This document shows, in pieces, positions 23,903 through 43,735 of a DNA stretch of 64,000 bases. A program made the position numbers and the translations under genes. The notes under the pieces were generated by a model. The model saw only the letters and a list, made by a program, of their open reading frames with translations. It did no database searches and was not told the DNA's origin. Within the stretch, counting starts at the first letter, position 1; every line of letters starts with the position of its first letter. The DNA comes from an uncultured bacterium (GTDB lineage Bacteria > Patescibacteriota > Minisyncoccia > UBA6257 > 2-01-FULL-56-20). Location of the stretch: contig CAWJQC010000004.1 of assembly GCA_963844965.1 (NCBI GenBank), positions 64,001 to 128,000 on the forward strand, written 5' to 3'.

Positions 23903-23924
23903 CAAAGGTGGGAGGGTGAAGATA

Positions 23925-23990
23925 TCATATGTGGCTTCGAACCACAGGTTCCAGGTTCGAGTCCTGGCGAGGGCACACACAACATTTCGT
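23925..23990 (+). other. Partial tRNA-Arg(TCG)-like fragment (anticodon arm plus T-arm, no 5' acceptor or D-arm)
   Basis: GTGGC-TTCGAAC-CACAG plus CCAGG-TTCGAGT-CCTGG plus CGAGGGCAC, with no complementary 5' acceptor strand upstream. Confidence 0.5.
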
Positions 23991-24491: not shown

Positions 24492-25886
24492 CTATTTCTG
24501 CAAGCTCAGAATTTTATTCCTGAACGTCAACTTACTCTTGAAGCAAGATAGCAATTCGCGTTTCTCGACCGTGCTGCCCTTTTTGAGAAGATATTTTGCG
24601 TACGTTTTAAGGTCAATTTCTTTAGTGGCCGCTTTCGATCCTTCTCCCAAGACATCGTTCGCGAATTTGCGATATCGTTCCATCTCGTCTTCGAATTTCT
24701 TCTGCATCCCAATCTCACTGATATCCATCTCGTCAATGATAGCGAGAAGTTGAGCGATCAATTCCTCTTCGCGAATGTATCCGCACTTGCAATCCTTATC
24801 TTTCGAGCGTGAGCATCCATAGTACACGTACCGCGCCGTCGTTCCATCCTTGTGCGCCTTATATTTCTCGCACGCACTGATGCCCGATCCGCATAGGCCG
24901 CACGAGATCAGTTTCGTAAACGAAAATTCCTTTATCTCCGACCTGATGACAAAATCTCGGTGCAGCTGCTCCTGTACTTTATCGAACAGCTCCCGCGAAA
25001 TGATTGCTTCGTGCTTGCCGCTGTACCAGTTACCGCTCTTCAGTGGATACTCAAAGATGCCGCAGTAAAATGGATTTTTGAGGATGATATAAATATTGGA
25101 TAACGAAAGCACTTTCCCATTCTTTGTTCTGAATTTGATTTCCGACTTCAGCCAATGATAAAGCTTCCGGCCCGACCATTGTTCGTCGGCGACTTTCTGG
25201 AGCATTTGCTTGATGACGGGCGCTCGCAGGGGATCAATGATAACTTCACAAGGACGGTCGGTGCTCTTCTCGTTAAGATACCCTGTCGGTGCGATAGACG
25301 GACGCAAACCTTGTTCGCACCGCATCCGTAATCCGCGCTTCACGTTTTCCGATTTGTTATCATTCTCAAGTTTCGCTTGGCTGCACAAAATCATCAACAT
25401 GAATTTCTCGCTCGGCGAGTTCGTGAATTTCTGGCTGAAGGTTCTGATCTCGATAAGTAATTTTTGATCCATCAAGTCCACCAAGCCGCCAAGGTCGCCC
25501 GCGTTGCGGCTCAAGCGATCCGGCGCCCATGTAAGGATACCGTTGAATTCGCCGGAACGAATATCAATAAGCAACTCGTTAAAAATTTTTCGCTGGCCGA
25601 CAGCTTTTGCGGAATGGCTTTCCTTTCTAACTTCGGCGATCTCAAGGTTATCGCGCTCGGCGATTTTCAGCATCTCCTTTATCTGACTATCAATGGAAAG
25701 CACTTGCTGTTCCTCGCTCTCCGTACTTTTCCTCGCATAGAGGCAGTATTTTATTTTTATCGCTTCGGCCTTTGTCGCAGAAACGCCCGACTGATCCCAG
25801 CCCTTTGGTATATTTGTTATTTTCTCCATACCTAAGGGATGCCGCAACGGCGGAAGGAGTCCAGAGCATCCTTGTCGGTAACTCAA
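24492..25886 (-). mobile_element. Large serine recombinase (resolvase catalytic domain, recombinase domain, zinc ribbon)
   Basis: YCLYARKSTESEEQQVLSIDSQ catalytic-Ser motif, large-recombinase middle domain, C-terminal Cys cluster CGLCGSG...YGCSRSKDKDCKCGY. About 590 bp from tRNA-Arg. Confidence 0.8.
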
Positions 25887-30256: not shown

Positions 30257-30488
30257 AAGCCACCTCCTTTTCCAGATTCAACCAACTGCTTCCACTCTAC
30301 CAAAAAGCGGGAAAAAATCCAGAACCTGTCCAAGTCGTTGCGGAAAGACGTTTTTGGATATAAAATAATAAAACCGGCCGCGAAGCCCGACATAATCAGC
30401 GCCATTCGGCTTAATAAAAATCCGCCCATAGCTCCCACCTTCGCCGAGGCTTCGGCGGGCAAGCAACTGGCCCCGCACCAAAATTTAT

Positions 30489-30561
30489 CCGCGCGTAGCT
30501 CAACTGGCAGAGCAGCTCCCTCTTAAGGAGACGGTTGCAGGTTCGACTCCTGCCGCGCGGA
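30489..30561 (+). tRNA. tRNA-Lys (anticodon CTT)
   Basis: Acceptor CCGCGCG/CGCGCGG, D-arm GCTC-AACTGGC-AGAGC, anticodon loop CTCTTAA (stem with one G.A mismatch), T-arm GCAGG-TTCGACT-CCTGC, discriminator A. Confidence 0.75.
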
Positions 30562-31231
30562 CTGGAAAAATTAAGGATAAATTTGGTGCGGGTTAGACGC
30601 CGCAGCTCTCCTCTTACAACCGCGTAGCGAGGCGAGGATAAAAATCGCCAATTTTTATTTTCGCCGAGCGAGCGGGTGGCGAAACAGGTTTTCGCAGGAA
30701 AAGGTTCCAGGTTCAAGTCCCTGCTTGCCAGCAGGCAGGCAGGTGGGCGGACACAGAATCGAGGATCTCCGGCAGCTCACCTCTTTTTTATTGACAACAC
30801 ACACGTTATTTTTTAATCTAAACAGTAGCGTCTGTTAAAAATTAAAAATCGGGAGCGGCAATGTATAGTCTGTTTGGAAGATTCGAGCGGATAGGCGAAG
30901 CGAAATATTCCGCCGAGGAAATCTGTCTTTTCCGGTTAATCGACCTTCTATTACATCGCGGATGGAGATTCCTGGGATGCCTGTGGAACGGCAAAAAATA
31001 TAAGATAAAAATAAAAAATCTCCGCACCGGCAAAAAACGCTCTTTCAAATCAGGACGCCCATATTGGCTCTCAAGCGATGCCGACGGAAATTTATTCTAA
31101 CCCCACCGAATGAACAGGTGGGTTTTTGTTTTGGGGTAAATTTGGTATAATATGTGCGCGATGTGCTTGGCTCATATTGGGAAAACGTGGCGCCGGACAC
31201 CGAACAAATTCCGTTCTATGTATAAATCATT

Positions 31232-33913
31232 ATGAGTGGGATAAAAATAAATCTTTCTCTCAGCGAAATCCCAGGCATCGGCCCGCGTTTTCTGGAACGG
31301 CTGGGAAAACTCGGCATAAAAACCGTCCGTGATCTCATTTATCATTTTCCGGCCCGCTACGAGGATTTCTCCCAGATATACAAAATTTCCGACGTTGAGC
31401 CGGGGGAACAGGTAACAATACGTGGCGTTGTTGAAGACACCAAACTGCGGCGGACTTGGAGAAAACACATGACAATCGCCGAAGCCCTGATCCGCGACGA
31501 TTCCGGAACGATACGCGCCATCTGGTTCAACCAACCATATGTTTTGAACACTCTGCGGGTCGGGCGCACGGCGAATTTCGCAGGCAAAATATCCATATCG
31601 GACGAGGACGAAATTTATTTGAGCCACCCGGCTTATGAAATCGTCGGCAGTCGGGAGTCGGGAACGGAGAAGCAAGAAACAAAACATACAGCGCGGCTCG
31701 TCCCCATTTATCCCGAAACGCGCGGCCTCACATCCAAGGGGTTGAGATATCTGATCCAGCCAATTCTGAAAAACAGCGAACAGCTGGAGGAATGGCTGCC
31801 GCCGGAAGTTCTGCGCGAAAATAATTTTCCCGAAATAAACCTTGCGCTCAGATCCATACACTTCCCCGAAAAAACCGAGGATGCTCTTGTCGCGAAAAAA
31901 CGCTTCACTTTTGAAAACCTGTTCCTGCTGCAACTCGCCAATCTTGAACAAAAATTGAAACTCGCGCGCGAAAAAGCGCCAGTGATCAAAACCGACATAG
32001 AACACCTGAAAAAAATGATCTCGGAACTGCCATACGAACTCACGTTTTCGCAAAAGAAATCATTGTGGGAAATCATCCAGGACCTCGCCAAAAAACAGCC
32101 GATGAACCGCCTGCTCCAGGGCGACGTGGGCTCCGGCAAGACGGTTGTCGCGGCGCTCGCCGCGGTAATTACCGCGGAAAACGGGCTGCAGACCGCGTTT
32201 ATGGCGCCAACCGAGGTTCTCGCGAGACAGCATTTTGAAACATTGAAAAAATTATTCGCCGGAATTCCCTCGATCCATCAACCCGTAGTTGGGCTTCTCA
32301 CGTCAAGCGAAGCAAAAATCCTCTACGCGACAGACCTTGAATCAAAAATCAAAAAACCGGAGTTGCAGGAAAAAATAAAAAACGGCGAGGTAAAAATAGC
32401 CATCGGCACGCACGCTTTGATACAAAAAGACGTGGCGTTCGGCAATCTTGCCTTTATCATCATTGACGAACAGCATAGATTCGGCGTCTCACAACGAGCT
32501 GCGCTCGTTCGCGGACAGACGCAGAATGATAATACGCGGACAGACGCTGAACAACTACTATACGAAAAAACGACGTTTGAGATAAGAAAAAGTCTGTTTG
32601 AGGTGAGAAAACAACTGGGCCTTGGTCATAAAGAAGTGGTGTATCAGAAAGCATTGGAGGAGGAGTTCAAGAAATCCGGTGTAATATTTGAGAAAGAAAA
32701 GAAAATTCCTGTCGTTTATAACAAGAAAAAGATTGGCGTTTATCAACCGGATTTTGTCATAGATAATGAAGTAATTTTGGAACTTAAGGCTCTTCCCTTT
32801 ATCGGCGGCATCGAAAAAAAACAGCTGTGGAATTATTTGAGGGGTTCGGATTACAAACTCGCGCTTATGGCAAACTTTGGACCGGAAAGATTATCCATAG
32901 AGCGGGTAGTATACGATATTGCGCGGAGTCGGCGGCTGTCAGCGTCCGGTCAGCAACTGTCCGCGCCTATCCCCCACCTCCTCTCAATGTCCGCCACGCC
33001 AATCCCACGCACGCTCATGCTCACCGTCTTCGGCGATTTGGATATATCGCTCATCACCGAACTTCCCGCCGGCAGAAAAAATATCGTAACAAAAATAATC
33101 CCCCCACGGGGCAGGAGCGAAGCCTATGAATTCATCCGCGGCGAAGTGAGGGCCAGCCGGCAGGTTTTTGTCATCTGCCCCCGCATTGACAAACCGCAGA
33201 CAGGCGCAGACCACACGCAGACAAACGCAGACAAGACACAGACAGACGCAGACAATTTTCAGCGGCTGTCTGCGTCAAGTCAGCGACTGTCCGCGTTAAG
33301 TCCACGTAAGTCCGCGTTAGTGTGGGAAGTAAGATCCGTGAAAGAAGAATTTGAAAAATTATCCAAGAAAATTTTTCCGGATTTGCGCGTCGCCATGCTC
33401 CACGGCCAGCTCAAGCCAAAAGAAAAAGCGGGTATCATGAAGGACTTCCGCAACTACAAAATAGATATTCTCGTTTCAACTTCCGTCGTGGAAGTTGGCG
33501 TGGACGTGCCGAACGCAACAATAATGATGATTGAAGGCGCCGATCGCTTCGGGCTGGCTCAGATCTACCAATTCCGCGGACGCGTGGGGCGCGGCGAACA
33601 CCAATCCTATTGCTTCCTGTTCACGGATTCGTCCGCCAAAACTACGCGCGAGCGGCTGCAGGCCGTCCTTGAAGCCAAGAACGGCTTTGAGCTCGCCGAG
33701 AAGGACCTGAAGATCCGCGGTCCCGGCGAATTCCTCGGCACGGCGCAGACCGGCTTTCCCGACACGGCGATGAGCGGCCTCATGAACCCGGAGCTCGTGA
33801 AAGCAAGCCGCGAAGCGGCGGCAAAAATCGTCCAAAAAGATCCGCTTTTCAAAAATTATCCGCTCCTGAAAACCAAATTAAACGAGTTCCGGAAGGAAAT
33901 CCACTTGGAGTAG
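31232..33913 (+). CDS. recG: ATP-dependent DNA helicase RecG carrying an inserted GxxExxY/PD-(D/E)XK nuclease-like domain (about 32500-32990) and a second short repeat-encoded insert (33180-33310)
   Basis: Wedge/OB N-terminus; helicase motifs GDVGSGKT, DEQHRFG, QxxGRxGR (YQFRGRVGRGEHQSY). Internal segment GHKEVVYQKALEEEF...YQPDFVIDNEVILELKA matches GxxExxY plus D-x(n)-ExK. Confidence 0.85.
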   Translation: MSGIKINLSLSEIPGIGPRFLERLGKLGIKTVRDLIYHFPARYEDFSQIYKISDVEPGEQVTIRGVVEDTKLRRTWRKHMTIAEALIRDDSGTIRAIWFNQPYVLNTLRVGRTANFAGKISISDEDEIYLSHPAYEIVGSRESGTEKQETKHTARLVPIYPETRGLTSKGLRYLIQPILKNSEQLEEWLPPEVLRENNFPEINLALRSIHFPEKTEDALVAKKRFTFENLFLLQLANLEQKLKLAREKAPVIKTDIEHLKKMISELPYELTFSQKKSLWEIIQDLAKKQPMNRLLQGDVGSGKTVVAALAAVITAENGLQTAFMAPTEVLARQHFETLKKLFAGIPSIHQPVVGLLTSSEAKILYATDLESKIKKPELQEKIKNGEVKIAIGTHALIQKDVAFGNLAFIIIDEQHRFGVSQRAALVRGQTQNDNTRTDAEQLLYEKTTFEIRKSLFEVRKQLGLGHKEVVYQKALEEEFKKSGVIFEKEKKIPVVYNKKKIGVYQPDFVIDNEVILELKALPFIGGIEKKQLWNYLRGSDYKLALMANFGPERLSIERVVYDIARSRRLSASGQQLSAPIPHLLSMSATPIPRTLMLTVFGDLDISLITELPAGRKNIVTKIIPPRGRSEAYEFIRGEVRASRQVFVICPRIDKPQTGADHTQTNADKTQTDADNFQRLSASSQRLSALSPRKSALVWEVRSVKEEFEKLSKKIFPDLRVAMLHGQLKPKEKAGIMKDFRNYKIDILVSTSVVEVGVDVPNATIMMIEGADRFGLAQIYQFRGRVGRGEHQSYCFLFTDSSAKTTRERLQAVLEAKNGFELAEKDLKIRGPGEFLGTAQTGFPDTAMSGLMNPELVKASREAAAKIVQKDPLFKNYPLLKTKLNEFRKEIHLE

Positions 33914-34179: not shown

Positions 34180-36625
34180 CTACTGCTCCATATGACCGAC
34201 AAGGGTGCATGTATAAAAGTTACCAGTGCATTGGGATGAATTAGTAACATCCCAACAAGTTGAATAAGTCTCCAGCGCGCCACTACAAGGAGTGGTATTA
34301 GCGCATGAACTGTTGTAGTAACGAATATAAGTCATATACTGCGGGCAGAAGTAAATCGGCGTCCCGCCTGTAACTTTAAGAGTGCCGGGAATGATGACGT
34401 TGCCGTTTGCTAGAACCTGTATAGCTGCTCCGGTTGTAGTAGCTGTACCAGTATTCGGCATACTGCCGCCAATACCGACGTTGCCGGCATAGTTGATGAC
34501 TAATTTATTTGATTCTGCCGCACTAGGATAATTTCCCACCATAAGCATGGCGCCCTGATTAACATCGCCCACATCGAGCAGCACCGCATCCGCATTGGTC
34601 GTAGCCGCGGTGCCGTAGAACGTGCCGGTATTGGTATCCCTGTTCTGCTCGAACTGGGTGCCGTAATCACCGGTGTTATACAAGAACGAATAGGTGGGAT
34701 TACTAAAATCGCTGTACATCTCAAGGCCGGGGCCGGTACCGGCAGTATTTGAATATGCATAAAATTGATAGTTGGCGGGCGCCGCCGCTCCCACCCCGAT
34801 TCCGGAGGTGAATAAACCTCCTCCAGTTACCGTCAGTTTCTGGGTCGGCGCCGTATTCCCGATGCCGACGTTGCCGGAGGAATTCCAAATACCGGTGCCA
34901 GGCATCGTAACGTTGCCAGTAAAGGTCGGGCTCGCTAAAAGCGCCGCTCCGGTAACCTGCGCTACCCCGTAGTCACCAGATGCCGCCACCACGGCTCCGG
35001 TTCCGCCAAATACCGAGGTGACGCCGCCGCTCGGCCAAGCCGTGATGCAATTCGCCCCGGAGATGCAATATTGAGTGGCGTTTGCGGTAACCGTTGACGT
35101 ACAGAGCGTACCCTCCGCCTGAGTTTGTGAAATACCCACCGTAGCCGCCGGAGTTGGTGGCTAATCCATAAACTCCTACGCCGTTACCTGCCGCTGACTG
35201 TCCGGCAACCCCTACCCAGTAAGAAGCGCCGACCTGTCCGCCGAGAATCCCATTCGTTGTGGCGTTGCTATTATTTCCCGTTACCGAGCCGACCCATGAT
35301 GAATTGACGGCGCTCGTGAAACTGCCTACGCCAGCAACAACCAACGGATATGCCGGCGTCGTCGTCCCGATGCCGACGTTGCCGTTCGTGATGGAGAAAT
35401 ATGGACCACCCCCCATCCCAGTGCCAAGCGCCAAATTGAGGCCATAAGATTGTGACGTCAAATCAGCGTATGTAAATGCTCCGTTGCTGGTGGTGAACTT
35501 TATCCAATCTACGTTTGACCCGTTTGTATTGTCTAGCCGTAAGGTAGACGTACTTCCACTCTGAATATCAAGTTTTGCGACCGGCGCCGTGTTCCCGATG
35601 CCGACGTTGCCGTTGTTATTTATAAACAAGGCGGGTGACGCGCCGGATGAGTCAGAACCCTGAGTCAAAAAGGCCATTGGAGAACCGTTACTGCCGATCC
35701 GGGCCCAGTTCGCAACTGCTGCCGGTCCAAGCTGTAGCAAGGCATCGGTACCGTTAGATGTCAAGTCAAACTTGGCGAATTTTGACCCGTTCACGACATG
35801 CAACGTCGTTGCCGGCGACGCCGTCCCGATGCCGACGTTGCCGCCATATGCAAGCGTCATTATTTGGGAGTACCAACTGCTGGGGTTCTGATACCCAATC
35901 GTCAAGACCGAATTATCTGACGCTGGTGCAAAAACATACCCATTATTACTGCCAGCCATATCGCGGAGCTTGAAGGCTCCAAAGACATCAAGTGTATTTT
36001 GTGGTGACGGCGTCCCGATGCCGACCGAGCCCGAGAAATACCCGCCGCCGTAGACGGAGAGGGCCTGCGGCAAGTTGCTGGCGGAGGATGTGGTAACGCC
36101 CAGAGCGGAAGAAACAAACACACTGTGGGGGAACCCGTAGGGAACGCCGGAATCGGCCTCTAGAGAATTGAACACCGCGGGCGTGACATAGCCGGCGTTG
36201 ACGGTCCCGTTAAAATTGCCGTGGATCGTGCCGTTCACGTCAAGCTGGTAGCCAGGCGACGCCGTCCCGATGCCGACAGAACCGTCATTGCGCACGACAA
36301 GTATGGGCGACGAATTCGGATAAAGGATCTTCAATGTGTAATTCGCGGCATCAGCGGACGAAGAAGCAACGATGAGGAGTTTGGTTTCCGGCAGAGGCGT
36401 GGGCGTACCAACGCCCAGATTCCCAGCCGCATTAGTGCTTACCGCTCCCGAACCGAAACCGGGGGTGGGAGGAGGAGAGGCAAACGCGTAGTAGGTAGTA
36501 GGTAGTAGGTAGTAGGTAGTAGCGAGAATGACGAAAAACAAAACGTGCGGCGCAAAACTCGGACGCACACCGTAAAACTTGCGGCGGAGCTTTTGCTGTT
36601 TTTGGAACAAATCTGCGTCCATCAT
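34180..36625 (-). CDS. Giant Sec-secreted fibre-like surface protein 1 (about 815 aa; frameshift near 35100-35160 joins ORF-track pieces 34973..36625 and 34180..35139)
   Basis: Signal peptide MMDADLFQKQQKLRRKFYG...VLFFVILATTYYLLPTTYYAFA; dozens of GNVGIGT(A/T)xP repeats; Cys-rich C-terminal domain; N-terminus and a ~150-aa internal block identical to the 40555..43680 paralog. Confidence 0.7.
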
Positions 36626-36859
36626 AATAATTTACTACCTACTACCTACTACCTACCGCTTTTAATTGTTTCGGGGCGACAATCTCATAGCTTTATTATA
36701 TAAGAACAGGGAAAGATATGTAGAAAGGGGTGTGCATAGGCGCGAAAACTGCCCGAGCGGCGGCCGCAAATTTCCCGGCCATCCGGGATATAAAAAAGGC
36801 TCTCGCGAGGAATTGCGAATTGCGAATCCTCACGAGAGCCAAACATACCGGAGGGGAAT

Positions 36860-37567
36860 CTAGTGGCCGACGATGGGTGGAAGACCGGCCTGGTAGCGGC
36901 GGTAATTCCCCATGTACCGGTCCGCCACCTGAATATTCCGCACGCCGTACCAAACGTGAACCGTGCTAAGGTAACCGGCAAAGCCGATGCTTGCGAGACG
37001 CTCGGCCCTCACCATTCTCCTGCCCCACTTATGTCCCCCCCATTTATGCTCTGTCCAGCGAGGGATAGCCGAAGAAAAGTAGGAAAAAACGACATCGAAC
37101 GCCGAGGCGCTCCCTAACACCCCAGCAATATTGCGATTGCCAAATTGGGTATATAGGGAGTCCGTCTCACGGGGGCCCTGCTGGCTAGCATAACGCAAAC
37201 CGTTGCTAGCGACGTACTCTGGAATAAAGGGTGGCGTAGAGAGGGAACGGAACGTGGTTATGTTGTCAAACGCAAATGGCCCGCGCTCAACACCCCACAT
37301 CCAAGCCTGTGTCCTCTCAAGCTTGCTCTGGTCCCGGTTTAACTTGCCGCCAGGCCAAGCCATAACCCTAAACACCTTATCAAAGGTTGATGGCTCAACC
37401 GGTGCCGCCGAACGCAAGGGCGAGATAGCGGGTGCGAGTGCCGGTGCAGACGCGGCGGATGCCGCCACGGGCGTTGACGCTAAGGGCAGTTCGGTAAGAC
37501 CGTCTGCCGGAAACGCGCGAACCGAAATGATTGTCAAGATTGTCAACAAAAGCACCAGTCGCTTCAT
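36860..37567 (-). CDS. Secreted hypothetical protein (start at MKRLVLLLTILTIISVRAFPA)
   Basis: Signal peptide plus Ala/Pro-rich linker; the ORF-track upstream extension overlaps a palindrome. Confidence 0.45.
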   Translation of the reverse strand: MKRLVLLLTILTIISVRAFPADGLTELPLASTPVAASAASAPALAPAISPLRSAAPVEPSTFDKVFRVMAWPGGKLNRDQSKLERTQAWMWGVERGPFAFDNITTFRSLSTPPFIPEYVASNGLRYASQQGPRETDSLYTQFGNRNIAGVLGSASAFDVVFSYFSSAIPRWTEHKWGGHKWGRRMVRAERLASIGFAGYLSTVHVWYGVRNIQVADRYMGNYRRYQAGLPPIVGH

Positions 37568-38045
37568 AACGACCTCCTCAAAAAGATTTAATTTAATTGC
37601 GCAAAGCAATTTGGCTACTCCCAAGAATAACCAAATCGCTTTGCGCAAGCAATATATTCATTTTTCAAGATACTTGCCTATCTATGCTAATTATAGCACA
37701 AATAAACAACCTGTCAACCCCCACCTTTTTCCGAAAAGGTGGGGGTCAAGTGGCCGCGGCGGCTGACCCGCTGAAGCGACGATACCCTACAACTCATAAA
37801 TCTCATCTCGCTTGCCTATTTTGAGTATATAAATTGCGCCATTTCTAACGTCAAATACCAACCTATAATCGCCCACGCGAAATCTGAACTCCCCGCCGCG
37901 GTTGTCAGCCAAACGCTTGGCAAACCTCAACGGATTATCCTCTGACGCATAAATGCGCATCTTCTTTGCTTTGCGATGCGCACTTGAACTTCTCTCGGCA
38001 GGGATTCCAACTGCTTAGCCGCCCGCTTGGCATAGAAAATCTTCG

Positions 38046-38222
38046 TTACAATCCCAACTTCTTAAACAGCTTATCCTGCGATATAGTTTTTTTTGCCTTG
38101 ATTTCTTTTCTCGCTTCGCGGACATCCAAAATATGCGCGAGGTAGCCAAGCAGGGCGCCGAAGCGAGCATCCGTTTTCCTCAAACGCTCGTATTCTTGTT
38201 TTGGTATAGTAACCGTGGTCAT
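38046..38222 (-). CDS. Antitoxin-like small protein (58 aa, MTTVTIPKQEYERLRKTDARFGALLGYLAHILDVREARKEIKAKK...), copy 1; its partner toxin is decayed
   Basis: Identical to the antitoxin at 40066..40242. The downstream RelE-like ORF in this copy has lost its ATG (CGT) and carries a 5-nt insertion. Confidence 0.5.
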   Translation of the reverse strand: MTTVTIPKQEYERLRKTDARFGALLGYLAHILDVREARKEIKAKKTISQDKLFKKLGL

Positions 38223-38345
38223 ATAAGTGCATTATAGTAAACCGGCGGCGGATATCAACCCCCACACCAAACGAGGACTTTCCGGGTCCCGCGCCGAAGG
38301 CGCATGTCCTCGTTAGGATTCTCGATAGGAATTGCCGGTGCGACA

Positions 38346-38564
38346 TTACAACAGAGAAACAAACTGCTCCGGTGCAAGTTCGGCATCACGTAGTATTTTG
38401 CGAAGCAGAGAAACATCCACTGCCTTATAGTTCGGCACCGTTACGGATTTCTTGCCGGGACAGGACAAACGAATATGGCTGCCGCGCTGGCGAACTTCGC
38501 GATAACCGAACTTTGCCAAAGCAGAAATAATCTTGCGGCCGGAGATAACAGGCAGTTTAGACAT
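38346..38564 (-). CDS. hicA: HicA-family toxin (mRNA interferase)
   Basis: 72 aa; REVRQRGSHIRLSCPGKKSVTVPNY, the HicA GSH motif. Confidence 0.65.
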   Translation of the reverse strand: MSKLPVISGRKIISALAKFGYREVRQRGSHIRLSCPGKKSVTVPNYKAVDVSLLRKILRDAELAPEQFVSLL

Positions 38565-38570
38565 GACGAG

Positions 38571-38840
38571 CTATACGGCAATTGTATGTAAGCTGATTTC
38601 CTGCGGCTTGTAATCCTGCAAAATTTGCCTGGACTGCTTTTCTTCCAAAATAAGCATTATAACCTCTCGGATATTGCGGAGCGCCTCGTCAATCGTCTTG
38701 CCCTGCGCATAACATCCTTCAAAAACAGGGCATTCAACAACATAAAACCCGCTCTCTCCTTTTTCGGCGAGGAGCGGCAATTGCCGGCCGCGGCCTATAA
38801 ATTTTGCTCTTGTTCTTGCCATAGTGAAATAATACCACAA
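38571..38840 (-). CDS. hicB: HicB-family antitoxin (UPF0150)
   Basis: GFYVVECPVFEGCYAQGKTIDEALRNIREVIMLILEE, HicB N-terminal RNase-H-like fold signature. Confidence 0.6.
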   Translation of the reverse strand: MWYYFTMARTRAKFIGRGRQLPLLAEKGESGFYVVECPVFEGCYAQGKTIDEALRNIREVIMLILEEKQSRQILQDYKPQEISLHTIAV

Positions 38841-39101
38841 CCCTTTAGGCGGTCAAGTGAAATTGGTAGCCAAAATCGCCCTGCCACACTAAAACCCCTT
38901 TAAATTCTTCCAGCAAGCAAACTGCCCGCGCTTTTCCGCGCGGGCTTTTTTTAAATCCCCGCTGAATACCCAGCCGAGACGTGGCGGAGACGAAACAGTG
39001 AGATATCTTTCTTTCCTCGCTTCGCAAGAAATCTTGCCGTTCCTCCGCGAGCCAATATCTACGGCCCCCGGCTGGAGGGATGAAATGAAATGGACGCTCA
39101 A

Positions 39102-39296
39102 CTATTTCTGTTTAATCTCTCTAATACCGAGGTCCCGGCAGATTTTCTTTGCCAAAAATTCATTGATTTCGCTATGGCGGGGCACCGTAGACGAACGTCT
39201 GACTTTGGGGTTAAAAAAGACGCTGTGCTTGGCGCCTTCCCGAACAAAAACACACCCCTCATGCTCAATGTGGCAAATTAAAACAACTCGCTTCAT
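39102..39296 (-). CDS. HicA-like toxin, second copy (divergent)
   Basis: 64 aa; ...STVPRHSEINEFLAKKICRDLGI resembles the HicA C-terminus; paired with the upstream HicB-like gene. Confidence 0.45.
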   Translation of the reverse strand: MKRVVLICHIEHEGCVFVREGAKHSVFFNPKVRRSSTVPRHSEINEFLAKKICRDLGIREIKQK

Positions 39297-39299
39297 TCA

Positions 39300-39545
39300 T
39301 CAAACTGTAAGCAGCTGCCGCGTCAACTTCTGTTTGCCGGCCTCGGCATCAGCCAGCGCCCGGTTGGTTTCCAAAATTAGCCGAAGCGCTTCTTTAAGAT
39401 TTTCTTTTACTTCCTTCACGCTTTTCCCTTGAGTATTTACCCCGGGCACTTCCTCTATCCAGCCGACATACCATTTACCGCTTTTTTTAAACACGGCTGT
39501 AAATTTGTATTTCATGACTGCCATACATTTAAGATAATCCCAAAG
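39300..39545 (-). CDS. HicB-like antitoxin, second copy (start MAVMKYKFTAVFKKSGKWYVGWIEEVPGVNTQGKSVKEVKENLKEALRLILE)
   Basis: UPF0150/HicB signature; trimmed from ORF 39300..39626. Confidence 0.55.
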   Translation of the reverse strand, partial: LWDYLKCMAVMKYKFTAVFKKSGKWYVGWIEEVPGVNTQGKSVKEVKENLKEALRLILETNRALADAEAGKQKLTRQLLTV

Positions 39546-39811
39546 CATGTAGCTGTCAACTCCTCTCAACTCCCGAGAAAACCCAGATGGCGAGCTTCTC
39601 CCTGCCTCGATAGGGTAGAAAAACAACTCAAACAGCCCAACGAAATTCGTTGGGCTGGATTTTTTTAACCAATGGCGTCACCCGCCGTTGAATTCCTTAA
39701 TATCTTTTGGCGAACACCGTTTAAACTACCTGTCAACCCCCACCTTTTTTCCGAAAAGGCGGGGGTCAAGCGGCCGCGGCGGCTGACCCGCTGAGCTGAA
39801 GCGACGATACC

Positions 39812-40066
39812 CTACAACTCATAAATCTCATCTCGCTTGCCTATTTTGAGTATATAAATTGCGCCATTTCTAACGTCAAATACCAACCTATAATCGCCCA
39901 CGCGAAATCTGAACTCCCCGCCGCGGTTATCAGCCAAACGCTTGGCAAACCTCAACGGATTATCCTCTGACGCATAAAAGCGCATCTTCTTCGCGATGCG
40001 CATTTGAACTTCTCTCGGCAGGGATTCCAACCGCTTAGCCGCCCGCTTGGCATAGAAAATCTTCAT
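39812..40066 (-). CDS. RelE/ParE-family toxin
   Basis: 84 aa; FYAKRAAKRLESLPREVQMRIAKKM...EFRFRVGDYRLVFDVRNGAIYILKIGKRDEIY, typical RelE/ParE. Confidence 0.7.
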   Translation of the reverse strand: MKIFYAKRAAKRLESLPREVQMRIAKKMRFYASEDNPLRFAKRLADNRGGEFRFRVGDYRLVFDVRNGAIYILKIGKRDEIYEL

Positions 40067-40242
40067 TACAATCCCAACTTCTTAAACAGCTTATCCTGCG
40101 ATATAGTTTTTTTTGCCTTGATTTCTTTTCTCGCTTCGCGGACATCCAAAATATGCGCGAGGTAGCCAAGCAGGGCGCCGAAGCGAGCATCCGTTTTCCT
40201 CAAACGCTCGTATTCTTGTTTTGGTATAGTAACCGTGGTCAT
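40066..40242 (-). CDS. Antitoxin partner of the RelE/ParE toxin (58 aa; stop overlaps the toxin ATG as TAATG)
   Basis: Not in the ORF track (under 60 aa). MTTVTIPKQEYERLRKTDARF...; translationally coupled to the toxin. Confidence 0.55.
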   Translation of the reverse strand: MTTVTIPKQEYERLRKTDARFGALLGYLAHILDVREARKEIKAKKTISQDKLFKKLGL

Positions 40243-40554
40243 ATTAAGTGCATTATAGCAAACCGGCGGCGGATGTCAACCCCCACACCAAACGAGGACG
40301 CGCGCCTTCGGCGCAGGACCCGGAAAGTCCTCGTTTGGTGTGGGGGTAAATTATGCCGAAAAAGCCGGAAGGAAAGATGCGATCTATGTTTCTCCCGCAA
40401 GAATACCCCCGCCGCAGGCGGGGGATGAATTGCGGTTCGAGAAACATAAACCCCGCCGATGGCGGGGTGAACTACCACCTAACATGCTGCATGTGCTAAG
40501 TATTTCGTGCGCAGCACGGCAGTTGAGATACCACCGCTGTGAGGCGGTGGTAGT

Positions 40555-43500
40555 TCATTTCAGAAGAGCGTCAACTTTTTCTTGGAGCGCGGCGTTCTGC
40601 GCCTGAAGAGCGCTGATCTCTTGTTGCTGCTCCTTGATGGATTCTATCATCGGCGCGATAAGCCCAGTATAATCCAGACCAAGGGTTCCGCTCGCGTCAG
40701 TTTCCACCAACTGCGGGAAAACCGTCTGTACATTCTGCGCGGTTAAACCGAGCTGCTCTCCACTGCCCATCAGTTTTGTATCTTTCCATTCAAAGGAAAC
40801 CGGCGTCAGTAACTCAAGCTCCGCAAGCGAACCCGACAGTGGAACTATATTCTTCTTCAAACGCTCGTCGGAGCTATTTATCCACTGCCCAGCATTGTTT
40901 GTATACTCGCCGTGGGCTCCCTGAAAGTCATACGTACTGCCGGAACCATAGACGCCGATTGCAGCAGTTGAAAACACCCCATACCCTGCGGGATTACCGA
41001 AGTATCCAGCGGAACCGTTCGCGCCCGCGGTATCCGAATATCCTTCCACCCCAACCCCAGTACCAGCGTTGTAGCCATAGACGGCGGGAAGACCATTACC
41101 AGTACCGTAGCCATAGACCCCATACCCAGTCGCACCAGCAGTGCCATAGACACCATACATAGAGCCGGTGCCATAAATCCCTGCCCCAGCTTGCCCGGCG
41201 CCACCGACGCTTAATGTTGACGCCGGTGCCGTCGTCCCGATGCCGACGTTGCCGTTCGTGATGGAGAAATATGGACCACCCCCCATCCCAGTGCCAAGCG
41301 CCAAATTGAGGCCATAAGATTGTGACGTCAAATCAGCGTATGTAAATGCTCCGTTGCTGGTGGTGAACTTTATCCAATCTACGTTTGACCCGTTTGTTTT
41401 GTCTAGCCGTAAGGTAGACGTACTTCCACTCTGAATATCAAGTTTTGCGACCGGCGCCGTGTTCCCGATGCCGACGTTGCCGTTCGTGATGGAGAAATAT
41501 GGACCACCCCCCATCCCAGTGCCAAGCGCCAAATTGAGGCCATAAGATTGTGACGTCAAATCAGCGTATGTAAATGCTCCGTTGCTGGTGGTGAACTTTA
41601 TCCAATCTACGTTTGACCCGTTTGTATTGTCTAGCCGTAAGGTAGACGTACTTCCACTCTGAATATCAAGTTTTGCGACCGGCGCCGTGTTCCCGATGCC
41701 GACGTTGCCGTTGTTATTTATAAACAAGGCGGGTGACGCGCCGGATGAGTCAGAACCCTGAGTCAAAAAGGCCATTGGAGAACCGTTACTGCCGATCCGG
41801 GCCCAGTTCGCAACTGCTGCCGGTCCAAGCTGTAGCAAGGCATCGGTACCGTTAGATGTCAAGTCAAACTTGGCGAATTTTGACCCGTTCACGACATGCA
41901 ACGTCGTTGCCGGCGACGCCGTCCCGATGCCGACGTTGCCGGAACCTAAAATTGTCACGAGATCCGTTTTCGAAGAAGCGCCCGTTTTTTCACTAAACTG
42001 GAAAGCGGTGGTGGGATTGTTATAAACATTATAAAAATCAACTTCTGCATTTCCTCCCGTATAATTCCAACCGACGGCCAGACCACCAAGGCCATCACTC
42101 ACCGGTAAAGATTGCGTGTTATATGAAGTTTTCAGGAACCCACCCTCAACATCGAGCTTGTAACCTGGTGCCGCCGTCCCGATGCCGACCGAGCCCGTGA
42201 AATATCCGCCGCCGTAGACGGAAAGCGCCTGCGGACCTACGGCACTGCCCGAAGTGGCAACCGCCAACGAAGAGGAAACGACGACGCTGGCCGGGAAAAG
42301 ATAATTGCCCGTGCTGACAACGTTTGAACCGAAATACCCGGCCGCCACGTTGCTGGCGTTCACGGTGCCACCCGAAGAAGCGCAGTCGGAACCGGTGCCA
42401 GAAACAACGCCCGCAGCGCTTACGTGCAAACACTGGATAGAACCGCTGATTCCAGAAACAGTAAGGGTGTTGGCACTTGCGCCACTGCTGAAAGTTTGAA
42501 GCGCGGTCCAGGTGTTCGCATGTCCAAGATTCAATGCGGCGGACACGGCGCCCGCGGTTGGAGATATCGTTAGAGTTCCGACGCCGCTGTCGCTGACCGA
42601 GGTTACGCTGCCGCCTGCCGCAGACCAAGAAAGCGTGCCAGCGCCGTTGTTCGTGAGCACAGTACTTGCACCGCCTTGCGCGGCCGGCCAGGAATAAGTG
42701 ATACTGTTGATTTTCGCGATGTTGCCGTTATTGTCAACCTGGAATTGACTGCTCGCGCCGACGCTAAAAAGCGACGCTGGCCCCGTCGTCCCGATGCCGA
42801 CGTTGCCGCCCGCAGTTATCCTCATTCTCTCAGCAGCTCCAGCTGAAGTGTCAACCCTAAATATAAGACCATTCGTCGCAGCGCTCGCCTTGACATCTAT
42901 AAACCCTCCCCCAGAAGAATCACTACTGAAAAGTCTCATGCCGTTAACACCGACGCTCGTATCACCTCCAAAGAATAGGTTGCCGTTGACGTTGCCTGCT
43001 GCCATAGGCAAAAGCATATTTGACGTAAGCTGAAGCTGTTGAGTTGGGTTCGCCGTCCCGATGCCGACGTTGCCGCTGAAATACCCGCCGCCGTAGACGG
43101 AGAGGGCCTGCGGCAGATTGCTCGCGGTTGTCGTTGTGATTCCAAGACCGGAAGTGATAAACACGCTGTGGGGAAACCCGTAGGGAACGCCGGAATCGAG
43201 TTGGAGAGAGTTAAACACCCCGGGCGAGATGTTGCCGGCGCTTACGAGACCGCTCACGCTGCCATAAATGGACATGCCGCTGGCGAGATTCACACTGCCG
43301 GCATTAGTAAGATTTGAAGTGCCGATACCGACGGTGCCATCGTTGCGCACGACGAGAAGCGGAACAGCAGAGCCGGGCTGGACAACCTGCAGAGCGAAAT
43401 TTGAGCTGTCGGTTGACGAAGCCACAATCAGAAGCCTCACGTTGGCGGAGGGTGTTGACGTTCCAATGCCCAGATTGCCCGCGGCGTTAACGCTTATCGC

Positions 43501-43680
43501 TCCCGAACCGTAACCGGGAGTGGGAGGAGGAGAAGCAAACGCATAGTAGGTAGTAGGTAGTAGGTAGTAGGTAGTAGCGAGAATGACGAAAAACAAAACG
43601 CGCGGCGCAAAACTCGGACACGCACCGTAAAACTTGCGGCGGAGCTTTTGCTGTTTTTGGAACAAACCTGCGTCCATCAT
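40555..43680 (-). CDS. Giant Sec-secreted fibre-like surface protein 2 (1041 aa) with peptidase-S74-type C-terminal intramolecular chaperone domain
   Basis: Same signal peptide as protein 1; GNVGIGT repeats; in-frame tandem 237-bp (79-aa) duplication at about 41237-41710; C-terminus NSSDERLKKNIVPLSG...GLDYTGLIAPMIESIKEQQQEISALQAQNAALQEKV, the S74 autoproteolysis motif SDxRLK plus a coiled coil. Confidence 0.75.
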   Translation of the reverse strand: MMDAGLFQKQQKLRRKFYGACPSFAPRVLFFVILATTYYLLPTTYYAFASPPPTPGYGSGAISVNAAGNLGIGTSTPSANVRLLIVASSTDSSNFALQVVQPGSAVPLLVVRNDGTVGIGTSNLTNAGSVNLASGMSIYGSVSGLVSAGNISPGVFNSLQLDSGVPYGFPHSVFITSGLGITTTTASNLPQALSVYGGGYFSGNVGIGTANPTQQLQLTSNMLLPMAAGNVNGNLFFGGDTSVGVNGMRLFSSDSSGGGFIDVKASAATNGLIFRVDTSAGAAERMRITAGGNVGIGTTGPASLFSVGASSQFQVDNNGNIAKINSITYSWPAAQGGASTVLTNNGAGTLSWSAAGGSVTSVSDSGVGTLTISPTAGAVSAALNLGHANTWTALQTFSSGASANTLTVSGISGSIQCLHVSAAGVVSGTGSDCASSGGTVNASNVAAGYFGSNVVSTGNYLFPASVVVSSSLAVATSGSAVGPQALSVYGGGYFTGSVGIGTAAPGYKLDVEGGFLKTSYNTQSLPVSDGLGGLAVGWNYTGGNAEVDFYNVYNNPTTAFQFSEKTGASSKTDLVTILGSGNVGIGTASPATTLHVVNGSKFAKFDLTSNGTDALLQLGPAAVANWARIGSNGSPMAFLTQGSDSSGASPALFINNNGNVGIGNTAPVAKLDIQSGSTSTLRLDNTNGSNVDWIKFTTSNGAFTYADLTSQSYGLNLALGTGMGGGPYFSITNGNVGIGNTAPVAKLDIQSGSTSTLRLDKTNGSNVDWIKFTTSNGAFTYADLTSQSYGLNLALGTGMGGGPYFSITNGNVGIGTTAPASTLSVGGAGQAGAGIYGTGSMYGVYGTAGATGYGVYGYGTGNGLPAVYGYNAGTGVGVEGYSDTAGANGSAGYFGNPAGYGVFSTAAIGVYGSGSTYDFQGAHGEYTNNAGQWINSSDERLKKNIVPLSGSLAELELLTPVSFEWKDTKLMGSGEQLGLTAQNVQTVFPQLVETDASGTLGLDYTGLIAPMIESIKEQQQEISALQAQNAALQEKVDALLK

Positions 43681-43735
43681 AATAATTTACTATCTACTAC
43701 TTACTACCTACCACCTACTACCTACTACCTACTAC

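What the first reader, a model, noticed from the sequence alone, without database searches (positions are those of the whole stretch)
37720..40275. Toxin-antitoxin island between the fibre genes, bounded by a duplicated ~530-bp cassette with strong hairpins
37721-38260 and 39731-40270 are about 97% identical direct repeats. Each starts with the hairpin ACCCCCACCTTTTT-CCG-AAAAAGGTGGGGGT and ends with TCAACCCCCACACCAAACGAGGAC...GTCCTCGTTTGGTGTGGGGG (a 20-bp stem in copy 2). Copy 2 encodes an intact 58-aa antitoxin plus a RelE/ParE toxin (TAATG overlap). Copy 1 keeps the antitoxin but the toxin start is mutated (CGT) and it has a 5-nt insertion, giving a decayed toxin and an orphan antitoxin. Between the copies lie two tandem HicB-HicA pairs. 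TA clusters flanked by repeats between variable surface genes are typical of defence or addiction islands and may stabilise the fibre-gene locus.
Basis: seen in the sequence. Interest (0 to 1): 0.65.

Follow-up and report, generated by a model that had tools for sequence, protein, structure and literature searches.

The report
Duplicated toxin-antitoxin cassette between mobile hairpins
A small toxin-antitoxin gene pair in an ultra-small (CPR) bacterium has been duplicated, with one toxin copy decayed. The strong hairpins at its ends are not part of the cassette: they are copies of a short palindromic element scattered through many CPR genomes.

Summary
**Observation: confirmed.** Window 37703-38278 and 39722-40299 are direct repeats (10 mismatches, 5 gaps). 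All genes lie on the minus strand.

- **Copy 2:** an intact 58-aa antitoxin and an 84-aa RelE-type toxin.
- **Copy 1:** an identical antitoxin, but a dead toxin (ATG to ACG, plus a 5-nt frameshift).
- **Between the copies:** two HicB-HicA pairs.
- **Setting:** a Patescibacteria chromosome, not a phage. The flanking genes are tail-fibre-like surface proteins.

**Interpretation: partly supported.** The toxin-antitoxin calls hold. The idea of a hairpin-bounded mobile cassette does not.

- Both hairpins belong to a palindromic family, ACCCCCAC(AC)C...G(GT)GTGGGGGT. It was found in at least 117 genome stretches, mostly Patescibacteria, and at least 120 metagenome contigs.
- In those genomes the family sits beside housekeeping genes, with no toxin-antitoxin enrichment.
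- Homologous toxin-antitoxin pairs elsewhere lack these hairpins.
- In flanks the search did not constrain, the pattern is T-xy-[element]-xy-A. The dinucleotide is repeated in 74 of 122 cases, against 21 expected. That looks like a 2-bp target-site duplication, so the family behaves like a MITE (a small non-coding transposable element).
- In the window, elements sit inside the TTGACA -35 boxes of two consecutive promoters and rebuild them.

The duplication ends at or inside these elements but carries no transposition signature. I read it as recombination, followed by toxin decay. The cassette is ordinary. The element family is the more interesting part, and I found no description of it.

The parts
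39812..40066 (-). Intact RelE-type toxin gene, copy 2 (84 aa)
   Evidence: Matches Pfam ParE_toxin PF05016, E 1.4e-8. The closest solved relatives are RelE-family toxins: 2khe, 9g12, 3g5o, 3bpq. All 28 columns that are invariant among 12 homologues are present.
40066..40242 (-). Antitoxin gene, copy 2 (58 aa, no named family)
   Evidence: Overlaps the toxin start at TAATG. Homologous 57-64-aa ORFs, 42-62% identical, sit directly upstream of homologous toxins in other Patescibacteria. No match in Pfam, NCBIfam, PHROGs or PADLOC.
38046..38222 (-). Antitoxin gene, copy 1 (orphan). Its nucleotide sequence is identical to copy 2.
   Evidence: No differences in 177 nt. The adjoining 255-nt toxin sequence has 6 substitutions and one 5-nt insertion.
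37787..38046 (-). Toxin pseudogene, copy 1
   Evidence: The start codon is ATG to ACG (38045). A 5-nt insertion at 37970-37974 shifts the frame. The invariant F30 is replaced by I. Only a 57-aa C-terminal ORF (37787-37960) stays open.
38571..38840 (-). HicB-like antitoxin 1 (probable start at ATG 38822)
   Evidence: Matches Pfam HicB_lk_antitox, E 5.6e-7. It has its own promoter-like site, TTGACC-16-TATTAT, at 38856-38829.
38346..38564 (-). HicA toxin 1 (72 aa)
   Evidence: Matches Pfam HicA_toxin, E 6.4e-15.
39300..39515 (-). HicB/UPF0150-like antitoxin 2
   Evidence: Matches Pfam UPF0150, E 7.3e-6, just under the gathering score. Promoter-like site TTGACA-17-TATCTT at 39559-39531.
39102..39296 (-). 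HicA toxin 2 (64 aa)
   Evidence: Matches Pfam HicA_toxin, E 1.7e-8.
37714..37749 (.). Palindromic element A, copy 1: T-CA | ACCCCCACC..GGTGGGGGT | CA-A
   Evidence: 13-bp stem, z -5.7. The CA dinucleotide is repeated on both sides, as in the wider family. On the minus strand its last T completes TTGACA-16-TATAAT (12 of 12 matches, 37717-37690), the promoter of the next gene.
39733..39769 (.). Palindromic element A, copy 2
   Evidence: Part of the duplicated segment. No -10 box follows it, so the promoter context was left behind.
40276..40347 (.). Palindromic element B, copy 2 (long form, 21-bp stem)
   Evidence: On the minus strand it completes TTGACA-16-TATAAT (12 of 12 matches, 40279-40252), 9 nt upstream of the antitoxin ATG. 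Near-identical inner stems (CCAAACGAGGA..TCCTCGTT) occur in other Patescibacteria genomes, for example L020, L025, L072 and L102.
38255..38317 (.). Palindromic element B, copy 1: interior inverted, distal arm truncated
   Evidence: (repeat I1). Its -35 box is weakened to TTGATA (11 of 12 matches, 38258-38231).
38924..38945 (.). Bidirectional terminator-like hairpin after hicA2
39633..39657 (.). Bidirectional terminator-like hairpin between element A2 and hicB2
36860..37567 (-). Downstream gene: a secreted protein of unknown function, driven by the promoter that element A1 sits in
   Evidence: ORF. The ATG at 37567 is preceded by GAGGAGG. No family match.
40555..43680 (-). Upstream tail-fibre-like surface protein B (1041 aa)
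   Evidence: C-terminal Peptidase_S74 domain. PHROG tail-fibre families down to E 4e-25.
34973..36625 (-). Downstream tail-fibre-like surface protein A, a paralogue of B
   Evidence: The two share an N-terminus and a 491-bp block that is 99.4% identical.

Best explanation
The locus is a chromosomal toxin-antitoxin cluster in a Patescibacteria (CPR) bacterium, lying between two paralogous tail-fibre-like surface-protein genes.

**The duplication.** A RelE-type toxin-antitoxin operon, running from its own promoter to the promoter of the next gene, was duplicated by recombination rather than transposition. In the copy next to the 262-aa gene the toxin then decayed. The antitoxin stayed identical and still has a near-consensus promoter, so it is now an orphan antitoxin.

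**The hairpins.** They are not cassette-specific recombination sites. They are two members, a short 'A' form and a long 'B' form, of a Patescibacteria-wide MITE-like family:
- terminal inverted repeats ACCCCCAC(AC)C...G(GT)GTGGGGGT;
- a variable interior of a few to about 90 nt;
- a 2-bp target-site duplication at TNNA targets.

Here each element sits in the T|TG|ACA of a -35 hexamer. Because the element ends in T, TTGACA is rebuilt, so the antitoxin promoter and the next gene's promoter stay intact. The stable hairpin just upstream probably also ends or insulates transcription coming from upstream.

**How the two connect.** The duplication end points fall at element A and inside element B, and B's interior is flipped in one copy. 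This suggests the repeated palindromes served as the substrates for recombination.

**Shown versus inferred.**
- Shown: the repeat, the gene families, the lesions in copy 1, the family's distribution, its neighbours and its flank pattern.
- Inferred: transposition as the origin of the family, the recombination route, and terminator or insulator activity.
For: **Repeat and lesions:**. An independent contig spans both inner junctions.

**Toxin and antitoxin.**
- The toxin is RelE-like.
- The antitoxin family is conserved upstream of homologous toxins.
- There are no differences in the 177-nt antitoxin, against 7 events in the 255-nt toxin. By my own arithmetic, (255/432)^7 is about 0.025.

**Family distribution.**
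- At least 117 stretches in species-representative genomes against about 27 expected by my estimate, most of them labelled Patescibacteria.
- At least 120 metagenome contigs carrying 84-114-nt members, against about 2 expected by my estimate.
- No hits in viral contigs.

**Family context.**
- The 125 neighbouring ORFs are housekeeping genes, with no toxin-antitoxin family among the top hits.
- Copies within one genome share an identical interior but have different flanks: L025/L093 on one contig, L006/L067, L020/L054. L002/L073 and L078a/b are flipped relative to each other.

**Flank pattern, where the search did not constrain the flanks.**
- Base -3 is T in 116 of 122 elements; base +3 is A in 111 of 122.
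- The dinucleotide at -2,-1 equals the one at +1,+2 in 74 of 122 (shuffle mean 21, maximum 30). Eight different dinucleotides are involved.
- Elements are mostly intergenic: 31% lie inside long open frames, against 79% of random segments.

**Insertion into -35 boxes (TTGA-target subset).**
- 45 of 79 read TTGACA.
- 51 of 79 have a -10 box 16-18 nt downstream, against 5.8% at random positions.
- The two 12-of-12 promoters in the window region start inside elements A1 and B2.
Against: - No empty (uninserted) site and no autonomous element or transposase was found. Transposition is therefore inferred from flanks alone.
- Element B2 in the window lacks a matching dinucleotide (T-CA ... AA-A).
- The same position upstream of orthologous genes recurs in different classes (L031/L049, L037/L105, L047/L070). 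This could mean a conserved regulatory role rather than repeated insertion.
- My genome pattern forced TCA on one flank, so the promoter association is partly a sampling effect.
Copy number in this genome is therefore unknown beyond the 64-kb window, which holds 4 canonical copies, all at this locus.
- The identical antitoxin copies could reflect gene conversion or chance rather than selection.
- No toxicity, neutralisation, transcript-end or promoter data exist.
Confidence: 0.6

Rival explanations
1. Composite, MITE-flanked transposon. The two palindromic elements act together as the ends of a unit that carried the toxin-antitoxin operon to a second site, which is the first reader's 'MITE-like mobility'.
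For: The cassette is bracketed by two family members. The family shows a target-duplication signature.
Against: - The outer flanks of copy 2 are T-CA and AA-A, with no matching dinucleotide.
- Both copies share CCTG beyond the T-CA on the A side, which a new target site would not.
- Copy 1's outer arm of B is truncated and its interior inverted.
- No closer relative of the cassette than a 73%-identical toxin exists among 5.8 billion proteins.
- Homologous pairs elsewhere lack the elements.
Confidence: 0.1
2. Integron-like gene cassettes, with the hairpins acting as attC-type recombination sites read by an integrase.
For: The hairpins have a conserved base and a variable tip, and toxin-antitoxin cassettes are common in chromosomal integrons (the latter from established knowledge). 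TGTCAAC and GTTGACA faintly resemble RYYYAAC and GTTRRRY.
Against: - Both core heptamers deviate from the attC consensus at two positions. The stem is perfect, with no unpaired central spacer.
- The HicBA pairs are not bounded by such sites.
- No integron integrase was seen. The only recombinases found in the window are two large serine recombinases next to tRNA genes.
- Family members elsewhere sit between housekeeping genes and carry a 2-bp direct repeat.
Confidence: 0.03
3. The palindromes are dedicated regulatory modules, inherited vertically, and not mobile DNA. They would act as a transcription-unit boundary: a terminator or insulator hairpin fused to a -35 box, or the operator of a conserved Patescibacteria DNA-binding protein.
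For: - 65% of TTGA-type members have a properly spaced -10 box, and 45 of 79 read exactly TTGACA.
- The upstream gene usually ends within about 40 nt of the element, and neighbouring genes run in the same direction.
- Pairs of elements bracket one- or two-gene units.
- Placement upstream of orthologous genes recurs across classes.
- Short forms share a roughly 30-bp perfect palindrome, ACCCCCACACCTATGCATAGGTGTGGGGGT, across classes.
Against: - The T-xy..xy-A direct repeat involves 8 different dinucleotides, and most long members sit at TTTA/TAAA sites with no -35 context.
- Copies in one genome share an identical interior but have unrelated flanks.
- No U-tract follows the stem.
- The spacing between the arms varies from a few to about 90 nt, which does not fit a dimeric operator.
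- The two readings are not exclusive: inserted elements could later be co-opted.
Confidence: 0.2
4. Assembly artefact: two strain variants of a single cassette were wrongly joined in tandem.
For: The copies differ by only 2-4%, and the sequence comes from a metagenome assembly.
Against: An independent Logan contig (L001) is 100% identical to 38013-39824. It runs from the 3' end of the copy 2 toxin, through both HicBA pairs, into the copy 1 antitoxin, and includes the copy-specific variants and the inverted loop. Unique sequence flanks both copies in the window.
Confidence: 0.03

Closest known systems
RelBE / ParDE-superfamily type II toxin-antitoxin modules (toxin Pfam PF05016)
   Same: An 84-aa toxin matches PF05016 over its full length, and its closest solved relatives are RelE toxins. 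A small antitoxin gene lies upstream with a 1-nt TAATG overlap, and the pair has its own promoter.
   Different: The 58-aa antitoxin belongs to no named family. It matches nothing in Pfam, NCBIfam, PHROGs or PADLOC, and the word-indexed search found only two relatives. It does recur upstream of homologous toxins. Activity is untested.
HicAB type II toxin-antitoxin modules
   Same: There are two pairs, each with a HicA_toxin domain and a HicB/UPF0150 partner. Each pair has its own promoter-like site and terminator-like hairpin.
   Different: The antitoxin gene comes first here. In the E. coli hicAB prototype the toxin gene comes first (from memory, not tested). The second HicB scores just below Pfam's gathering threshold.
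Orphan antitoxins left after toxin decay ('anti-addiction' copies)
   Same: Copy 1 keeps an identical antitoxin behind an 11-of-12 promoter, while the toxin carries three kinds of lesion.
   Different: Here the intact cognate pair lies only 2 kb away on the same chromosome. The extra antitoxin may simply change dosage, and no competing plasmid or phage copy is known.
MITEs that carry promoter or terminator function, such as Neisseria Correia elements, and IS630/Tc1-type 2-bp duplications (recalled from the literature, not tested here)
   Same: - Short and non-coding, with terminal inverted repeats and several copies per genome.
- Mostly intergenic.
- A 2-bp direct repeat sits inside a 4-bp target with conserved outer bases, here T-NN-A. 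This is analogous to N-TA-N for IS630.
- The element ends help form promoter hexamers.
   Different: - The duplicated dinucleotide is variable rather than TA.
- Members can be as short as 31 nt, essentially two joined terminal repeats.
- The termini are identical across many Patescibacteria lineages and some Omnitrophota.
- No parent insertion sequence or transposase has been identified.
- Some members enclose a tRNA gene.
REP/BIME extragenic palindromes mobilised by RAYT transposases
   Same: They are extragenic palindromes placed just after stop codons, occur in either orientation, and are potential mRNA 3'-end hairpins.
   Different: The elements here have a direct-repeat flank signature, no GTAG/GGAG tetranucleotide, and an apparently much lower copy number (roughly one extra copy per 50 kb around known copies). 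No RAYT gene was examined.
Integron attC sites
   Same: They are hairpins with a conserved base and a variable tip that flank small cassettes, toxin-antitoxin genes included.
   Different: There are no R/L box consensus, no unpaired spacer and no integrase. The elements flank housekeeping genes and carry a 2-bp duplication.

Membership tests
Type II toxin-antitoxin, RelE/ParE superfamily | Small toxin with the RelE/ParE fold or sequence family | tested here: met
   PF05016 matches at E 1.4e-8 across residues 3-82 of 84. Solved RelE toxins are the best PDB sequence matches.
Type II toxin-antitoxin, RelE/ParE superfamily | Adjacent small antitoxin gene in the same operon, conserved as a pair | tested here: met
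   The genes overlap at TAATG. A homologous 57-64-aa ORF lies upstream of homologous toxins in loci L119-L136.
Type II toxin-antitoxin, RelE/ParE superfamily | Conserved basic and aromatic residues of RelE-type mRNA interferases | tested here: inconclusive
   R53, R55, R60, R78 and Y82 are invariant among 12 homologues, and the GDYRL and KRDxxY stretches align to RelE chains. I did not map catalytic equivalence residue by residue.
Type II toxin-antitoxin, RelE/ParE superfamily | Toxicity, and neutralisation by the antitoxin protein | not testable with these tools
   Needs expression experiments.
HicAB | HicA domain toxin next to a HicB (RNase H-like/UPF0150) antitoxin | tested here: met
   HicA_toxin matches at E 6.4e-15 and 1.7e-8. 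HicB_lk_antitox matches at 5.6e-7. UPF0150 matches at 7.3e-6, 1 bit below the gathering score.
Integron gene cassette / attC | attC with R''(RYYYAAC)...R'(GTTRRRY) boxes, an unpaired central spacer and extrahelical bases | tested here: not met
   The sequences are TGTCAAC and GTTGACA, each with two deviations. The stem is a perfect 13-21 bp with no spacer.
Integron gene cassette / attC | Integron integrase with attI next to the array | tested here: not met
   None was seen among the window ORFs scanned. Only two large serine recombinases were found, both at tRNA genes. One search lists 25 of 34 families, so the check is not exhaustive.
MITE (the hairpin elements) | Terminal inverted repeats, small size, no coding capacity | tested here: met
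   The ends are ACCCCCACACC and GGTGTGGGGGT, and members are 31-114 nt long.
MITE (the hairpin elements) | Several dispersed copies per genome with unrelated flanks | tested here: met
   Identical interiors occur at different loci of one genome: L025/L093, L006/L067, L020/L054 and L002/L073.
MITE (the hairpin elements) | Target-site duplication | tested here: met
   The flanking dinucleotide is repeated in 74 of 122 elements (shuffle mean 21, maximum 30), with T at -3 in 95% and A at +3 in 91%. Window element A fits this pattern; window element B2 does not.
MITE (the hairpin elements) | Empty sites or presence/absence polymorphism, and a related autonomous element encoding a transposase | tested here: inconclusive
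   No pair of ends 0.3-5 kb apart was found in 1.6 Mb of held loci.
REP/BIME | Conserved GTAG/GGAG next to the palindrome, hundreds of copies, a cognate RAYT gene | tested here: not met
   There is no such tetranucleotide in the flank consensus. Local density is low. RAYT was not examined.
Intrinsic (Rho-independent) terminator | G+C-rich stem followed directly by a U-tract | tested here: inconclusive
   The stems are strong. On the transcribed strand the stem is followed by UGACA..., not a U-run. The consensus scan lists element A1 only because of T-rich sequence further downstream.
Rfam RNA families | A match at gathering score | tested here: not met
   No family matches the hairpins in the window or in 18 other loci.

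The most novel reading that the evidence does not exclude
The 'strong hairpins' may belong to an undescribed MITE family found across Patescibacteria.

- Its termini are invariant: ACCCCCACACC...GGTGTGGGGGT.
- It makes a 2-bp duplication at TNNA targets.
- It can insert into the TTGACA -35 hexamer and rebuild it.
- It sometimes encloses a tRNA gene.
- It serves as a substrate for local rearrangements such as this duplication.

If so, a still-unidentified transposase is, or recently was, active across very different ultra-small, streamlined genomes and some Omnitrophota.
Probability: 0.4. Interest if true: 0.6.

Novelty: new member of a known kind. Interest (0 to 1): 0.4.

Why it matters
**The cassette.** It is a textbook case of toxin decay with antitoxin retention and adds little.

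**The hairpins.** They are more useful. Patescibacteria genomes are small and generally thought to be poor in mobile DNA. A short palindromic element with identical ends in many of their lineages would give several things:
- a marker for genome rearrangement;
- a source of assembly breaks;
- a possible handle on promoter and terminator architecture in organisms with almost no transcript mapping;
- a lead towards an unknown transposase.

**A practical warning.** Hairpins next to small cassettes in these genomes should not be read as integron-type sites.

Tried and rejected
**Exact-protein look-up of the toxin.** Nothing on record. The antitoxin look-up returned only L001.

**Integron reading.** Rejected on the core sequences, the lack of an integrase, and the housekeeping neighbours.

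**DNA-uptake-sequence reading.** Conserved inverted repeats at gene ends occur in Neisseria. Rejected here because density is far too low: 4 copies in 64 kb, all at one locus.

**Structured-RNA reading.**
- Rfam shows nothing at gathering score or at E up to 5.
- Short forms are perfect palindromes through their centre, and interiors flip relative to the flanks. Both point to a DNA-level element.
- Some long forms do have UUCG/GAAG-capped inner hairpins, which I did not explain.

**Phage origin.** No hits in viral contigs.

**Literature.** The sequence strings and combinations of Patescibacteria, palindromic, MITE and related terms found nothing relevant.

**Autonomous element.** No terminal repeats 0.3-5 kb apart.

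**Third, decayed cassette between the HicBA pairs.** Only a 17-of-18 match at 39008-39025. tblastn gives nothing significant.

**Naming the organism.** Cluster look-up returned no names. Patescibacteria is inferred from the toxin homologues.

**A correction to my own earlier reading.** I first took the promoter association as the element's function. The unconstrained metagenome flanks then showed that my pattern had selected insertions at TTGA targets.

Full report
**1.

Reading 37400-40700 and aligning the two stretches shows a direct repeat: 37703-38278 against 39722-40299. The alignment has 583 columns, 10 mismatches and 5 gaps.

- Hairpin A is 37717-37746 in copy 1 (13-bp stem, -33.2 kcal/mol, z -5.7) and 39736-39766 in copy 2.
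- Hairpin B in copy 2 is 40279-40347, a perfect 21-bp stem with a 27-nt loop (-56.3 kcal/mol, z -7.1).
The distal arm also stops matching after about 12 nt (repeat I1).
- TCAACCCCCAC occurs four times in the 64-kb window, only at these cassette ends.
- An independently assembled contig (L001, Logan ERR10755942) is 100% identical to 38013-39824. It covers both inner junctions, so the arrangement is not an assembly artefact.

**2. The genes.**

Everything is on the minus strand.

- 39812-40066 matches ParE_toxin PF05016 over its whole length. Its nearest solved relatives are RelE toxins.
- 40066-40242 is a 58-aa ORF that overlaps the toxin at TAATG. It matches no curated family.
- Homologous 57-64-aa ORFs, 42-62% identical and sharing the C-terminal QEKLFKKLGL, sit directly upstream of homologous toxins in other Patescibacteria. 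It is therefore the cognate antitoxin family.
- Pfam confirms both HicB-HicA pairs.
- Each of the four operons has its own sigma-70-like promoter. The ATG lies 6-15 nt after the -10 box, so I infer the transcripts are leaderless or nearly so. Terminator-like hairpins lie at 38924-38945 and 39633-39657, on either side of the second HicBA pair.

**3. Copy 1 has decayed in the toxin only.**

| Region | Differences between the copies |
|---|---|
| Antitoxin gene, 177 nt | none |
| Toxin gene, 255 nt | 6 substitutions and a 5-nt frameshifting insertion |

- The toxin changes include ATG to ACG at the start and F30I at a family-invariant position.
- The -35 box changes from TTGACA to TTGATA.
- If the changes fell at random over the two genes, all seven landing in the toxin has a probability of about 0.025 (my arithmetic).
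- This fits relaxed selection on a dead toxin with a retained antitoxin. Gene conversion could also explain it.

**4. Setting.**

- The window opens with the ribosomal-protein/EF-G/EF-Tu cluster. It also holds RecG, aminoacyl-tRNA synthetases, four scattered tRNAs and a fluoride riboswitch. This is a bacterial chromosome.
- All toxin homologues with names come from Patescibacteria.
- The flanking 1041-aa and 550-aa proteins are paralogues with PHROG tail-fibre hits. The 1041-aa protein also has a Peptidase_S74 C-terminus. Their N-termini look hydrophobic, like signal sequences, so they are fibre-like surface proteins rather than prophage genes.
- The paralogues share blocks that are 92-99% identical, so the whole neighbourhood recombines.

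**5. What the hairpins are.**

A pattern covering both hairpin types found at least 117 stretches in the species-representative genome collection. I estimate about 27 would occur by chance. The large majority are MAGs labelled Saccharibacteria, Paceibacterota/Parcubacteria lineages and other Patescibacteria, plus several Omnitrophota.

- They share ACCCCCACACC...GGTGTGGGGGT ends. Interiors range from a few nt (31-37-nt forms) to about 55 nt (63-79-nt forms).
- Several long forms have the same inner stem as window hairpin B (CCAAACGAGGA..TCCTCGTT).
- The 125 neighbouring ORFs are ordinary housekeeping genes: NusA, RuvB, GroES, L10, DnaK, DnaA, GyrB, LigA, synthetases and sigma-70. No toxin-antitoxin family appears among the top matches.
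- Conversely, loci encoding the closest toxin homologues have no such hairpins. One of these is a long, co-oriented toxin-antitoxin island in a Nomurabacteria genome.
- Rfam has no matching family. Viral contigs have no copy. I found no description in the literature library.

**6. The elements look like MITEs.**

- Copies within one genome share an identical interior but have unrelated flanks (L025/L093 on one contig; L006/L067; L020/L054). Some are flipped relative to each other (L002/L073; L078a/b).
- A second scan, with unconstrained flanks and an interior of 62-92 nt, returned at least 120 metagenome contigs. I estimate about 2 would occur by chance.
- In those contigs, base -3 is T in 116 of 122 and base +3 is A in 111 of 122.
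- The dinucleotide just left of the element equals the one just right of it in 74 of 122. Shuffled pairings give a mean of 21 and a maximum of 30. Eight different dinucleotides are involved.
- T-xy-[element]-xy-A is what a 2-bp target-site duplication at TNNA sites would leave.
- The elements are depleted from long open frames: 31% lie inside one, against 79% of random segments.
- No autonomous partner or empty site was found. Transposition therefore remains an inference.

**7. Link to promoters, and a correction.**

My first pattern required TCA on one flank, so it sampled only insertions at TCAA/TTGA targets.

- Among those, 45 of 79 read TTGACA across the junction.
- 51 of 79 have a -10 box 16-18 nt further on, against 5.8% at random positions.
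- I first read this as the element's function. After, the simpler reading is insertion into the T|TG|ACA of existing -35 hexamers. Because the element ends in T, the hexamer is rebuilt.
- In the window, the two 12-of-12 promoters of the region begin inside elements B2 (40279-40252, driving the antitoxin) and A1 (37717-37690, driving the next gene).
- The cassette looks 'bounded by hairpins' because two elements sit in two consecutive promoters.
- A co-opted role as a boundary or insulator hairpin is possible. The upstream stop codon usually lies within about 40 nt, and placement upstream of orthologous genes recurs in different classes. This is not shown.

**8. How the duplication arose.**

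- On the A side, homology ends 4 nt beyond the T-CA flank, and both copies share CCTG there.
- On the B side, it ends inside the distal arm, with the interior inverted.
- The outer flanks of copy 2 (T-CA ... AA-A) do not match each other.
- Element A2 has lost the -10 box that follows A1.

None of this fits transposition of a composite unit. It does fit recombination that used the repeated palindromes, for example with a B-type copy in the opposite orientation. The route is inferred.

**9. Verdict.**

- The 'mobile hairpin-bounded cassette' and 'defence island' readings are not supported. None of the genes matched PADLOC.
- The cassette is an ordinary member of known toxin-antitoxin families that has undergone duplication and decay.
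- The hairpins are the more interesting part: a widespread, apparently undescribed, MITE-like palindromic element of Patescibacteria.

**Limits.**

- The source genome beyond the window was not available.
- Nothing here has been tested experimentally.

Noticed in passing
window 36491-36514 / 36633-36656 and 43544-43576 / 43702-43734: Both fibre-like surface genes have a long inverted repeat that brackets the start codon and the first ~37 codons: 24 nt at 100% for one gene, 33 nt at 97% for the other. One arm is the (GTAGTAG)n stretch that encodes TTYYLLPTTYY; the other lies in the 5' UTR. This could be an invertible on/off switch, or a 5'UTR-to-coding-region RNA hairpin that hides the start codon.
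   Followed up: no
window 23817-23916 (tRNA-Arg 23830-23903): The tRNA-Arg(TCG) gene lies inside a 14-16-bp palindrome, CCCTCCCACCTTTG..CAAAGGTGGGAGGG. Its arms resemble element A, and its flanks follow the family rule T-TG|..|TG-A. A metagenome member (L161) also encloses a tRNA.
   Followed up: partly
window 23915-23967 and 24492-25886; 60085-61686 with tRNA-Pro 60095-60166: A partial second tRNA copy follows tRNA-Arg, and a large serine recombinase gene lies next to it. A second large serine recombinase overlaps tRNA-Pro. These are probably integrated elements at tRNA genes.
   Followed up: no
window 30470-30595 (tRNA-Lys 30489-30562): tRNA-Lys is enclosed by a stem extended by about 20 bp, CCCCGCACCAAAATTTATCC..GGATAAATTTGGTGCGGG. 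Its outer part resembles the arms of element B. The other two tRNAs in the window, and tRNAs in other loci, lack such stems.
   Followed up: partly
window 40350-40555: The spacer between the stop codon of surface gene B and element B2 is a stack of nested palindromes. It includes two C/G-run hairpins, ACCCCGCC..GGCGGGGT and CCCCCGCC..GGCGGGGG. Folds score z about -5. The only Rfam matches are weak and sub-threshold.
   Followed up: partly
window 34180-35139 and 34973-36625: Surface gene A appears split into two overlapping, out-of-frame ORFs of 550 aa and 319 aa. This could be a frameshift, a pseudogene or a sequencing error.
   Followed up: no
window 35353-35843 = 41451-41941; 41223-41678: The two surface genes share a 491-bp block at 99.4% identity, which suggests recent gene conversion. 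Gene B also contains a 228-bp tandem duplication.
   Followed up: no
window 39008-39025: An 18-mer matches the antitoxin gene at 17 of 18 positions, in the spacer between the two HicBA pairs. It may be a relic of a third cassette, but there is no significant protein-level match.
   Followed up: yes
L119-L124 (Nomurabacteria and related metagenome contigs): The homologous toxin-antitoxin pair sits in a long array of toxin-antitoxin modules that all point the same way: DUF6922-AbiEii three times, a ParE-like pair, RelB-YafQ, and Gp49-HTH. Such islands recur in Patescibacteria without the palindromic elements.
   Followed up: partly
window 31232-33913 and 54307-56076: RecG carries an inserted PD-(D/E)XK nuclease domain. 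A class I aminoacyl-tRNA synthetase ORF is fused to a histidine-phosphatase domain.
   Followed up: no
L020, L044, L054, L079, L025/L093 and window 40300-40326: Long-form interiors from different genomes contain one or two small inner hairpins capped by GAAG on one strand and UUCG on the other. This conserved architecture is not explained by the MITE reading alone.
   Followed up: no
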